DNA of 64,000 nt, from the IMG/VR virus record IMGVR_UViG_2617271072_000004, positions 32,726 through 96,725 of that record; one strand, written 5' to 3'. Every line of letters starts with the position of its first letter. Within the stretch, counting starts at the first letter, position 1. Made by a program: the position numbers and the translations under genes. Positions 39,305 through 40,587 of the stretch are shown piece after piece. This DNA is from a virus. Lineage: Duplodnaviria; Heunggongvirae; Uroviricota; Caudoviricetes. The notes under the pieces were generated by a model, which was not told the DNA's origin, did not search any database, and saw only the letters and a program-made list of their open reading frames with translations.

Positions 39305-39309
39305 GCGCA

Positions 39310-39600
39310 ATCCATAATATTGACTATATGCGATAGCGAGAAGTTGACTATAGGCGACATTCGTTGACGCTGGTGGATTTTTGCTGGCGTCAATATTCTG
39401 CAAGTCGCTATTGAGATGGCTTTTAGGGGCATTTCATCGCGTATAGTCAACGTTTCTCCCGACAATATCTTACATAGTCGATCTTTGGTGGAGTTAAATC
39501 GACTACAGTCAACTTTTGACTGTAGTCACATCGCGCATAGTCAACTATTCACATTAACCTTCGCGCATAGTCAACATTTGCGCGGTTCTCATCAAGCAGT
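39310..39600. repeat. second iteron array downstream of repA, about nine copies in both orientations (TTGACTATAGGCGA / CGCGCATAGTCAAC)
   Basis: Direct reading of repeated iteron-like 14-mers. Confidence 0.65.
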
Positions 39601-39609
39601 GGTATTGAT

Positions 39610-40419
39610 ATGCAAGAAGAGAAACAACACTACCTCTACGTTCTGGTGCCAGAGAACGGAGATACTTTTAAAATCGGCATTTCATGTGGTCCATTGGCAC
39701 GGTTTAAAGGACTACAAGTGAGTCCCGATTTTGCGCTTTCACGGGTCTATCGTGGTACGCGTTTGGCAATGGTTAATCTTGAGCGGGCTTTACACGCAAC
39801 CTTTTTCCCCTGGAATGCGCCGTGGGAGAAAAGCGTCGGTGGCGGGCATACTGAATGGTTTACACGAGAGTGTCTTGATAAGGTTTTGGCTCATATCGAA
39901 TATCTAAATGATATGTGGGGAGGGATTCTCGAGCGCATTAAGTCGAATGATTTACTTCAGCGTCCAGTAGATGCTGCTTGCTCTTTCGAAAAAGAGCTGG
40001 ATGTTACTTCTATCGTGACTTTCAAAGATGACGCAGGAATGAGGGACGTGGCTTATGTCTCCATATCTGGCTATGAACCGGACGCGATCCGCGCTCAATG
40101 TGAATTGCTGAAAGCAATGTTTATGCTTCGGACTAAATATCCCTGGGATACAGGGCGGGTGTGCTTCCCTATGGAAGAGTTAACCGCCACCATTGATTCC
40201 CAGCTTTACCACGATAATCCAGAGAAGTTTTTTAGCCTTTTAGCCGGTAATGGGCTTAACTGTGTGTCCGGGCTGGGGCGAAGTAGAATCCAACATGCCT
40301 CGCTCTTCGGTCCCTTCTTTTACGATCGACACGGGTACTTTGAGGCTGAACTTCCGGCGCTTACGCGTGCTATAGATACTATCGATTTCGAACGATTATT
40401 CGCTGCTCTTAGCAAATAA
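39610..40419 (+). CDS. GIY-YIG-like (T5orf172-type) domain protein with unknown 170-aa C-terminal domain (269 aa)
   Basis: N-terminal YLYVLVPENGDTFKIGIS...R...GHTEWF pattern; own intrinsic terminator. Confidence 0.55.
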   Translation: MQEEKQHYLYVLVPENGDTFKIGISCGPLARFKGLQVSPDFALSRVYRGTRLAMVNLERALHATFFPWNAPWEKSVGGGHTEWFTRECLDKVLAHIEYLNDMWGGILERIKSNDLLQRPVDAACSFEKELDVTSIVTFKDDAGMRDVAYVSISGYEPDAIRAQCELLKAMFMLRTKYPWDTGRVCFPMEELTATIDSQLYHDNPEKFFSLLAGNGLNCVSGLGRSRIQHASLFGPFFYDRHGYFEAELPALTRAIDTIDFERLFAALSK

Positions 40420-40431
40420 CACTGATGCCCC

Positions 40432-40453
40432 TGAACGGGGCTTTTTTGTGCCC
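40432..40453 (+). terminator. intrinsic terminator GCCCCTGAACGGGGC followed by TTTTTTG
   Basis: GC stem-loop plus T-run. Confidence 0.6.
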
Positions 40454-40587
40454 TCCTTGTAACTCTCAATCGTGCAAAATGAACCAAACATGCAGAGAAT
40501 GCTATGTACAAGCATCTACGCATACATTATTATTTTATGCAGCATTTTTAATTAAATTCAAAAATACAGCATAAAGGATGACTTTCG

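What the first reader, a model, noticed from the sequence alone, without database searches (positions are those of the whole stretch)
39305..40460. GIY-YIG/T5orf172-like gene inserted between incA iterons and parA
An 810-bp gene with its own intrinsic terminator sits between the incA iteron array and parA, where from memory P1 has only the parA promoter/operator. The N-terminal 100 aa carry a GIY-YIG-like pattern (YLYVL...KIGIS...R...GHTEWF); the C-terminal 170 aa are unrecognised. A nuclease-like cargo gene in the most stably inherited part of a phage-plasmid is a plausible site for an anti-phage, plasmid-competition or addiction function.
Basis: partly seen in the sequence, partly recalled or inferred. 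Interest (0 to 1): 0.7.

Follow-up and report, generated by a model that had tools for sequence, protein, structure and literature searches.

The report
Nuclease gene riding P1-like plasmid replicon
A real 269-residue gene between the plasmid replication and partition genes of this P1-like phage-plasmid encodes a GIY-YIG-type (T5orf172) DNA-cutting domain joined to a winged-helix domain; it always travels with the replication cassette and is most likely a selfish or competitive nuclease, but its function has never been tested.

Summary
ORF 39610-40419 (+, 269 aa) lies between six RepA iterons and the parA promoter and has its own terminator. P1 has no gene there.

It is not an insertion into the P1 replicon. 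It is the last gene of a replacement cassette (window 38235-40485: oriR iterons, repA', incA-like iterons, this gene, terminator), the 'p0111' replicon type. About 400 PLSDB plasmids and 12 phage records carry it, and repA' and the gene occur roughly 1:1.

Homologues at 25-44% identity occupy the same slot in a rarer sister lineage with three replicon types, one of them P1-like IncY. Two near-identical backbones there differ only in this cassette.

The gene evolves faster than its neighbours (piN/piS 0.32 against 0.00-0.06) and tolerates natural knockouts.

Best reading, inferred and untested: a homing-endonuclease-like nuclease acting between rival P1-like elements.

The gene is already annotated and has been noted in two papers as unknown.

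The parts
38001..38234 (+). Origin part shared with P1 (the DnaA-box and GATC-rich side of oriR), about 82% identical to P1. It forms the gradual left edge of the exchanged cassette.
   Evidence: blastn against P1; P1 annotation of oriR; 43 mismatches in about 240 columns against 1-2% further out
38248..38355 (+). Five oriR iterons (TTGACTATACGCGA type, 21-22 bp spacing) of the p0111-type replicon.
38432..39304 (+). repA' (Rep_3/RepFIB-like initiator), 40% identical to P1 RepA. In this window its C-terminus is shifted by one extra T near 39257. An iteron copy lies inside the gene at 39036-39049.
39320..39357 (+). Two incA-like iterons in direct orientation.
39437..39574 (-). Four incA-like iterons in inverted orientation. 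The last one ends about 30 nt before the start codon of the nuclease gene.
   Evidence: the same layout occurs in L003, L048 and L050
39610..39924 (+). Nuclease gene, N-terminal domain (aa 1-105): T5orf172, GIY-YIG superfamily. Y10, K21, G23, R31, E58, H62 and E82-W83-F84 are invariant among 11 relatives.
39925..40419 (+). Nuclease gene, C-terminal domain (aa 106-269, plus the stop codon): winged-helix-like fold. It is an orphan at the sequence level, found only in P1-like elements.
40427..40450 (+). Intrinsic-terminator-like hairpin plus T-run that closes the cassette.
40486..40587 (+). Sharp right junction. P1 homology (about 99%) resumes here, 67 nt after the stop codon, and covers the par promoter and ParA operator just upstream of parA.

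Best explanation
The gene encodes a two-domain, sequence-directed DNA endonuclease. It has an N-terminal T5orf172 (GIY-YIG superfamily) catalytic domain with the family's conserved Tyr, Arg and Glu intact, and a C-terminal winged-helix domain that supplies target recognition. It is the last gene of the plasmid-replicon cassette (oriR iterons, repA', incA-like iterons, nuclease, terminator).

It most likely behaves like a free-standing homing endonuclease. When two P1-like elements share a cell, through superinfection or co-residence, the nuclease cuts the rival's DNA in or near the rep-par region. Recombinational repair from the nuclease-bearing element then copies the gene together with the tightly linked replicon. 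That would explain why the cassette moves as one block with a sharp edge just past the nuclease gene.

Shown here: the domain identities, the position, the linkage to repA', the exchange boundaries, the conserved synteny and the faster evolution. Inferred: nuclease activity, the target, and homing or exclusion.
For: Domain architecture:
- Pfam T5orf172 scores above threshold.
- Y10, R31 and E82 are invariant in 11 relatives.
- The C-terminal domain models as a winged helix.
- A catalytic domain of about 100 aa plus a DNA-binding domain is the layout of I-TevI and Seg homing endonucleases (established knowledge). T5orf172 proteins with DNA-binding domains are described as putative homing endonucleases that sit next to essential genes and at boundaries of genetic exchange (PMC10448857). 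A T5orf172 domain is a proven double-strand nuclease in ICP1 Odn (PMC8263062).

Boundary position, seen twice independently:
- Window against P1: homology stops at 38234 and resumes sharply at 40486, 67 nt after the stop codon.
- L003 against L048: the backbones are 96-99% identical, but the stretch from the first oriR iteron to 84 nt after the nuclease stop codon is replaced. There RepA is 40% identical and the nuclease 28.5%.

Allele with and without the gene: an IncY-like replicon carries a homologue (L048/L049, RepA 83% identical to P1 RepA), while P1's IncY replicon has none.

Evolution:
- piN/piS is 0.32, against 0.02 for repA', 0.00 for parA and 0.06 for parB, across 44-46 loci.
- Between the window and L003 the specificity domain is about 33% identical, the nuclease domain about 62% and RepA 80%, while the iterons are unchanged. 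This argues against the protein reading its own conserved iterons and fits a shifting target.

Not essential: an IS200/IS605 insertion with a deletion disrupts it in L044, and frameshifted copies exist in two further records.
Against: - No cleavage site or target could be identified in silico.
- No p0111-type replicon lacking the gene was found: about 398 records carry RepA' and about 401 carry the gene. The classic presence/absence polymorphism within one allele is therefore missing.
- The HEG-less allele, P1 IncY, differs across the whole cassette.
- Homologues hold the same slot across four RepA types, and their divergence roughly tracks RepA divergence. This also fits long vertical co-inheritance with a replicon-linked function.
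- piN/piS of 0.3 with intact ORFs in 44 of 46 loci shows continuing constraint, not the decay expected of a fixed selfish gene.
- Any gene at the end of a cassette will sit at its boundary.
- Homing by T5orf172 genes is itself only inferred in the literature (PMC10448857).
- No convincing promoter was found for the gene in any of the four lineages.
Confidence: 0.4

Rival explanations
1. Replicon-directed exclusion nuclease, working like ICP1 Odn. The winged-helix domain recognises origin or iteron DNA of a rival replicon type (for example IncY iterons), and the nuclease destroys that replicon. This would give a nuclease-based form of incompatibility between P1-like elements, without necessarily copying itself.
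For: - Odn is a T5orf172 nuclease fused to a Rep-like DNA-binding domain. It cuts a rival element's origin at its iterons, and replicon-module exchange is the documented escape route (PMC8263062, PMC10448857).
- Here the gene is embedded in the replicon cassette and differs with every RepA/iteron type.
- The top BFVD Foldseek hit is a COG5527 plasmid-replication initiator.
- Two replicon types circulate on near-identical backbones.
Against: - There is no sequence similarity between the C-domain and the neighbouring RepA or any of five P1-like RepAs: BLASTP E 3.2, hhalign probability 0.2%.
- Odn is encoded by the attacker outside any replicon.
- No target is known.
Confidence: 0.2
2. Domesticated accessory of the replicon. 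The protein acts on its own element, as a DNA-binding regulator (like the T5orf172-related repressor CapR), as a nickase, or as a RepA partner working through a WH1-like interface. It would tune copy-number control at incA or expression of the par operon.
For: - Linkage with repA' is 1:1 in about 400 plasmids.
- Gene order is conserved next to the last iteron in four replicon types, with no room for a promoter independent of the iterons.
- It is retained in a 17-kb IS-bounded mini-derivative.
- Purifying selection is detectable, piN/piS 0.32.
- CapR is a precedent for domestication (PMC10448857).
- The fold hits to the Rep WH1 dimerisation domain allow an interaction with RepA.
Against: - P1, the best-studied member, replicates and partitions stably without such a gene (and established knowledge of the P1 replicon).
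- Natural knockouts persist, and split copies occur in a plasmid and in an isolated phage.
- The catalytic residues are fully conserved, which a pure DNA binder would not need.
- The protein evolves much faster than RepA although the iterons stay the same.
Confidence: 0.15
3. Stand-alone anti-phage defence nuclease carried by the prophage-plasmid, for example one that senses modified or foreign DNA as the GIY-YIG enzyme PD-T4-3 does. It would protect the lysogen from unrelated phages.
For: - Phage-plasmids often carry defence genes (papers listed).
- More distant relatives that share only the N-domain lie in variable islands and mobile elements beside Mrr, WYL or toxin-antitoxin genes.
Against: - No match to any PADLOC model or any NCBIfam model.
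- The gene is not in a recognised variable defence hotspot. It sits inside the replicon cassette and changes only together with RepA.
- The C-domain occurs nowhere else among 1.8 billion representative proteins, unlike typical defence modules that spread widely.
Confidence: 0.1
4. No current function: a hitch-hiking remnant of an old selfish nuclease, preserved only by its tight physical linkage to repA'.
For: It has the highest piN/piS among the neighbouring genes tested. Occasional disruptions occur. No detectable promoter was found.
Against: - The ORF is intact in 44 of 46 loci and in 391 of 402 plasmid records.
- piN/piS is well below 1 in both domains.
- Full-length homologues with all catalytic residues survive down to 25-28% identity in the same slot.
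Confidence: 0.05

Closest known systems
T5orf172-family putative homing endonucleases of phage ICP1, T5-like and other phages (Barth, Dunham and Seed 2023, PMC10448857)
   Same: Both have a T5orf172 nuclease domain joined to a DNA-binding region. Both are free-standing genes beside essential genes, placed at the edge of a DNA block exchanged between related genomes. In both the specificity domain evolves fast.
   Different: - The nuclease domain here is N-terminal.
- The second domain is an orphan winged-helix fold, not the CapR/DUF723/DUF4397 zinc fingers that 87% of those proteins carry. No Pfam hit was found, and only one Cys is invariant.
- The host is a temperate phage-plasmid, and the neighbouring essential gene is a plasmid initiator.
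ICP1 Odn (Gp88), the origin-directed nuclease (PMC8263062)
   Same: Both combine a T5orf172 nuclease with a DNA-binding domain. Both are connected to iteron replicons whose modules are swapped between elements. The catalytic Glu is conserved (E82 here; E180 in Odn, as reported in the paper).
   Different: - Odn's binding domain is 42% identical to its target's RepA_N domain. Here no sequence similarity to any RepA was found.
- Odn is encoded by the attacking phage. This gene lies inside a replicon cassette.
- No target is known here.
T4 Seg proteins and I-TevI (GIY-YIG homing endonucleases)
   Different: The domain belongs to the T5orf172 branch, not canonical PF01541, and the second Tyr motif reads FK[IV]G. 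The DNA-binding domain is unrelated.
P1 IncY plasmid replicon (oriR/incC, repA, incA, then parAB)
   Same: Same overall order and logic: five origin iterons, a Rep_3-type initiator, and a downstream control array of iterons in both orientations. The flanks (upfA, Ppar-parA-parB) are 97-99% identical.
   Different: RepA is only 40% identical and the iteron sequence differs. There are six iterons rather than nine downstream of repA, and the extra nuclease gene with its terminator lies before Ppar.

Membership tests
Pfam T5orf172 (PF10544), GIY-YIG clan | Profile score above the curated gathering threshold | tested here: met
   26.9 bits against a cutoff of 20, aa 8-85 matching profile positions 2-87 of 101. 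MUG113 and Tox-URI2, from the same clan, score below threshold.
Pfam T5orf172 (PF10544), GIY-YIG clan | GIY-YIG alpha/beta fold | tested here: met
Pfam T5orf172 (PF10544), GIY-YIG clan | Conserved catalytic Tyr, Arg and metal-binding Glu | tested here: met
   Y10, R31 and E82 (in TEWF) are invariant in 11 relatives. Their equivalence to the catalytic residues of I-TevI and Odn is inferred from motif position, not from a structural superposition.
Pfam T5orf172 (PF10544), GIY-YIG clan | DNA endonuclease activity | not testable with these tools
   Needs purified protein.
Free-standing homing endonuclease gene | Nuclease domain plus a separate DNA-binding domain in one free-standing ORF | tested here: met
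   The two-domain model has a winged-helix C-domain. The ORF has its own terminator and lies between other genes. DNA binding is inferred from the fold only.
Free-standing homing endonuclease gene | Present or absent at the same locus in otherwise homologous genomes | tested here: inconclusive
   P1 (IncY) lacks it, while an IncY-like replicon in L048/L049 has a homologue. But no p0111 replicon without the gene was found among about 400 records, and the P1 allele differs over the whole cassette.
Free-standing homing endonuclease gene | Lies at a boundary of recombinational exchange | tested here: met
   Window against P1: sharp junction 67 nt after the stop codon. L003 against L048: junction 84 nt after the stop codon.
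Free-standing homing endonuclease gene | Cuts the allele lacking it and is copied into it (homing) | not testable with these tools
   Needs cleavage assays and genetic crosses.
ICP1-type T5orf172 HEGs | CapR/DUF723/DUF4397 zinc-finger DNA-binding repeats | tested here: not met
   Pfam finds nothing outside aa 3-85. No conserved CxxC pattern is present, and only C88 is invariant among the four full-length homologues. The custom CapR profile from PMC10448857 was not available.
Odn-type origin-directed nuclease | DNA-binding domain homologous to a replication initiator's iteron-binding domain | tested here: inconclusive
Odn-type origin-directed nuclease | Iteron-dependent cleavage of a rival element's origin | not testable with these tools
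   Needs biochemistry.
Known anti-phage defence systems (PADLOC-DB 2.0) | Match to a defence-protein profile | tested here: not met
   0 families at E up to 1.

The most novel reading that the evidence does not exclude
P1-like phage-plasmids carry, inside each replicon cassette, a cognate nuclease that enforces replicon identity. It cuts rival replicon types, or cassette-less alleles, when two elements meet. This would create a nuclease-based layer of incompatibility, drive whole-replicon replacement (for example IncY to p0111 on the P1 backbone), and diversify together with RepA and the iterons. Classical P1 would be the lineage that lost it.
Probability: 0.2. Interest if true: 0.75.

Novelty: new variant of a known kind. 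Interest (0 to 1): 0.5.

Why it matters
P1-like phage-plasmids are common carriers of ESBL and other resistance genes in E. coli and Salmonella, and they are typed by exactly this replicon difference, IncY against p0111. If the nuclease drives or polices replicon exchange, it would explain three things:
- how one phage backbone acquires a new incompatibility type;
- why the cassette moves as a unit;
- how related elements exclude or convert one another.

It would also extend the 'nucleases at boundaries of genetic exchange' idea from lytic phages to plasmid replicons. The question is directly testable with cleavage assays and P1 crosses.

If instead the gene is only a hitch-hiker, the result still clarifies a region that two papers describe simply as unknown ORFs inserted between repA and parA.

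Tried and rejected
- Simple insertion into the P1 replicon: rejected. The whole cassette 38235-40485 is replaced.
- C-domain derived from the neighbouring RepA, as in Odn: no sequence support.
- Remote relatives of the C-domain. An exhaustive phmmer search over 1.84 billion representatives, a four-sequence profile search, PDB sequence searches and BFVD Foldseek found nothing outside P1-like elements. The afdb50 library was not available.
- Known defence system: no PADLOC hit.
- Remnant of the gene in P1's incA-Ppar spacer: none.
- A dedicated sigma-70 promoter upstream of the gene. None was convincing in any of the four lineages, and site counts did not exceed shuffled controls. Expression is therefore unknown. 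Read-through from repA or an iteron-overlapping promoter is only an inference.
- Genomic context of more distant relatives that share only the N-domain (P0012, P0013, P0017). They sit in unrelated mobile-element or island contexts, so they say nothing about replication.
- Divergent RepA' plasmids lacking the gene in PLSDB: none exist there. The few RepA' copies scoring below 95% identity were not inspected.
- P0010-type (IncY-like plus nuclease) elements among finished plasmids and phages: absent.
- Foreign base composition: none. The gene is 47-48% GC, like its neighbours.

Full report
**What is there**

The window is a P1-like phage-plasmid. Against P1 (NC_005856), homology runs over 35001-38234 and 40486-45806.

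ORF 39610-40419 (+, 269 aa) is real. It is preceded by iterons. The pattern TTGACTRTNNNCGA occurs 11 times in the 64-kb window, all within 38252-39574, against 0.07 expected:
- five iterons (one outside the pattern) at the origin;
- one inside repA';
- two direct and four inverted between repA' and the ORF.

A terminator-like hairpin with a T-run follows at 40427-40450. In the annotated P1 record, only Ppar and the ParA operator lie between incA and parA. P1's spacer holds no remnant of such a gene.

**The protein**

Residues 8-85 match Pfam T5orf172 at 26.9 bits, above the cutoff of 20. PHROGs has a full-length family of unknown function (phrog_2876) and a weaker match to an 'endonuclease' family. 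PADLOC and NCBIfam give nothing.

**It is part of a replicon cassette, not an insertion**

The non-P1 stretch 38235-40485 contains different origin iterons, a RepA only 40% identical to P1 RepA, different control iterons, the nuclease gene and its terminator.
- The right junction is sharp. Identity to P1 is about 99% from 40486 onward, 67 nt after the stop codon.
- The left side decays over 38001-38234, the DnaA/GATC part of oriR, which is about 82% identical.

This is the 'p0111' replicon type, as opposed to IncY. [quoted passage not shown] Another lists '2 orfs inserted between repA and parA' in pSvP1 (PMC6906374).

The 1283-bp region is found at 98.8% identity or more and full coverage in 12 phage records, including SJ46, RCS47, JL22 and phi456. 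It is found at 80% coverage or more in 388 PLSDB plasmids, where RefSeq calls the product 'GIY-YIG nuclease family protein'. By tblastn, 401 plasmid records carry the gene at 90% identity or more, and 398 carry RepA'. Linkage is therefore essentially 1:1. A 17-kb IS-bounded mini-derivative keeps upfA-repA'-nuclease-parAB.

**Deeper homologues sit in the same slot**

An exhaustive HMMER search of 1.84 billion representative proteins found only three full-length relatives:
- P0004, 44% identical;
- P0010, 27% identical;
- P0011, 25-28% identical.

All other hits (74 at E of 1e-3 or below) share only the N-terminal domain. A profile of the C-domain finds nothing further.

Each of the three relatives lies between repA and parA of a P1-like element. 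Each has five origin iterons, iterons in both orientations after repA, and a start codon 20-30 nt after the last iteron.

L003 and L048 have nearly identical backbones: seven flanking proteins are 97-99.7% identical, and nucleotide identity is 96-98.6%. They differ from the first origin iteron to 84 nt past the nuclease stop codon. RepA is 40% identical and the nuclease 28.5%.

L048/L049 (Salmonella enterica) has an IncY-like RepA, 83% identical to P1's, with P1-type iterons, and still carries a nuclease gene. L050 has a third RepA type. So the arrangement repA, iterons, nuclease is the general state in this wider family, and classical P1 is the exception. P0010-type elements are absent from PLSDB and INPHARED. 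More distant relatives that share only the N-domain lie in unrelated mobile-element contexts.

**Evolutionary behaviour**

piN/piS across 44-46 closely related loci:

| Gene | piN/piS |
|---|---|
| nuclease gene (both domains alike) | 0.32 |
| repA' | 0.02 |
| parA | 0.00 |
| parB | 0.06 |
| upfA | 0.16 |

The gene is constrained, but much less than its neighbours.

Between the window and L003, RepA is 80% identical and the iteron consensus is unchanged. The nuclease domain is about 62% identical and the winged-helix domain about 33%. Nucleotide similarity stops at the domain boundary, window 39923. A protein reading the unchanged cognate iterons would not be expected to diverge this fast.

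The gene can be lost. In L044 an IS200/IS605 element (TnpA plus TnpB) replaces 229 bp of it. Split copies occur in an E. albertii plasmid and in phage vB_EcoM-673R5.

**How it most likely works**

T5orf172 domains are proven nucleases in ICP1 Odn, which cuts a rival element's origin at its iterons (PMC8263062). T5orf172 genes are described as putative homing endonucleases beside essential genes and at the borders of exchanged blocks (PMC10448857).

Several features fit a free-standing homing-endonuclease-like nuclease that acts between co-resident P1-like elements and carries the linked replicon along (confidence about 0.4):
- the architecture, a nuclease domain plus a DNA-binding fold;
- the position at a sharp exchange boundary in two independent backbones;
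- the existence of an allele lacking it;
- fast divergence of the specificity domain;
- dispensability.

An Odn-like nuclease aimed at rival replicon DNA is the closest alternative (0.2). A domesticated replicon accessory or regulator (0.15), an anti-phage defence nuclease (0.1) and a functionless hitch-hiker (0.05) remain possible.

The main weaknesses are these:
- no target could be identified;
- no p0111 cassette lacks the gene;
- the deep, conserved synteny also fits a replicon-linked function;
- no promoter could be identified in any lineage.

**Verdict**

'Inserted cargo gene' should be replaced by 'terminal gene of an alternative, widely distributed replicon cassette'.

The gene is already annotated and has been noted in the literature, but it has not been studied. 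No searchable paper links GIY-YIG or T5orf172 with P1-like elements.

What is new here:
- the cassette-level linkage;
- the conserved slot across four replicon types;
- the orphan winged-helix domain;
- the evolutionary rate contrast.

Interest is moderate.

Noticed in passing
window 39253-39257 and 40801-40804: Two single-base homopolymer insertions relative to RCS47: an extra T near the 3' end of repA' and an extra A in parA. The second splits parA into ORFs 40588-40860 and 40772-41785. The best PLSDB matches cover the 1591-base query in 1589 bases, so they lack both insertions. Sequencing or assembly errors are more likely than real inactivation of both RepA and ParA.
   Followed up: partly
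L044 6295-8057 (IMGVR_UViG_2645727563_000002): An IS200/IS605-type element (389-aa TnpB-like ORF and 141-aa TnpA-like ORF) replaces the equivalent of window 39904-40132 inside the nuclease gene. This is a natural knockout that leaves repA' and parA intact.
   Followed up: partly
L003, L048/L049, L050: A rarer sister lineage of P1-like elements (backbone proteins about 80% identical to P1; L049 is from Salmonella enterica) carries at least three replicon cassettes: p0111-like, IncY-like and a third RepA type with GGCTACTGNATGCTAC iterons. L003 and L048 are near-identical apart from the cassette. L050 also has a diverged ParA (57%) and ParB (42%).
   Followed up: partly
window 39036-39049; L003 about 7613-7626: One iteron copy (TTGACTATAAGCGA) lies inside the repA' coding sequence and is conserved in the 80%-identical L003 repA. 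Its role is unknown.
   Followed up: no
window 39416-39721 (+): A 101-aa ORF reads through the inverted iterons, which translate as repeated 'AHSQ', and overlaps the start of the nuclease gene. It is very probably spurious, but it likely explains the second ORF in descriptions of '2 orfs inserted between repA and parA'. The same artefact adds a 41-residue N-terminal extension to the called P0004 protein.
   Followed up: partly
window 39366-39397: An inverted repeat TTGACGC...GCGTCAA lies between the direct and inverted iterons. Its left half (ATTGACGCTGGTGGATTTT) is conserved in L003. Function unknown; it could be a repA terminator or a binding site.
   Followed up: no
window 36601-37000 (upfB) and 45486-45806 (gene 22): These are local patches of about 6-12% divergence from P1 within otherwise 99%-identical flanks. 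The upfB patch lies next to a Gly/Ser-rich low-complexity stretch. They look like small mosaic exchanges unrelated to the replicon cassette.
   Followed up: no
L051 (OY842570.1, 17,067-bp plasmid pF1200-1): An IS-bounded mini-plasmid consists of upfA-repA'-nuclease-parA-parB-23-22 and a few more P1 genes plus a Hok toxin. It is a natural minimal derivative of the p0111-type replicon. PLSDB types it as IncHI1B, which looks like a mis-typing.
   Followed up: no
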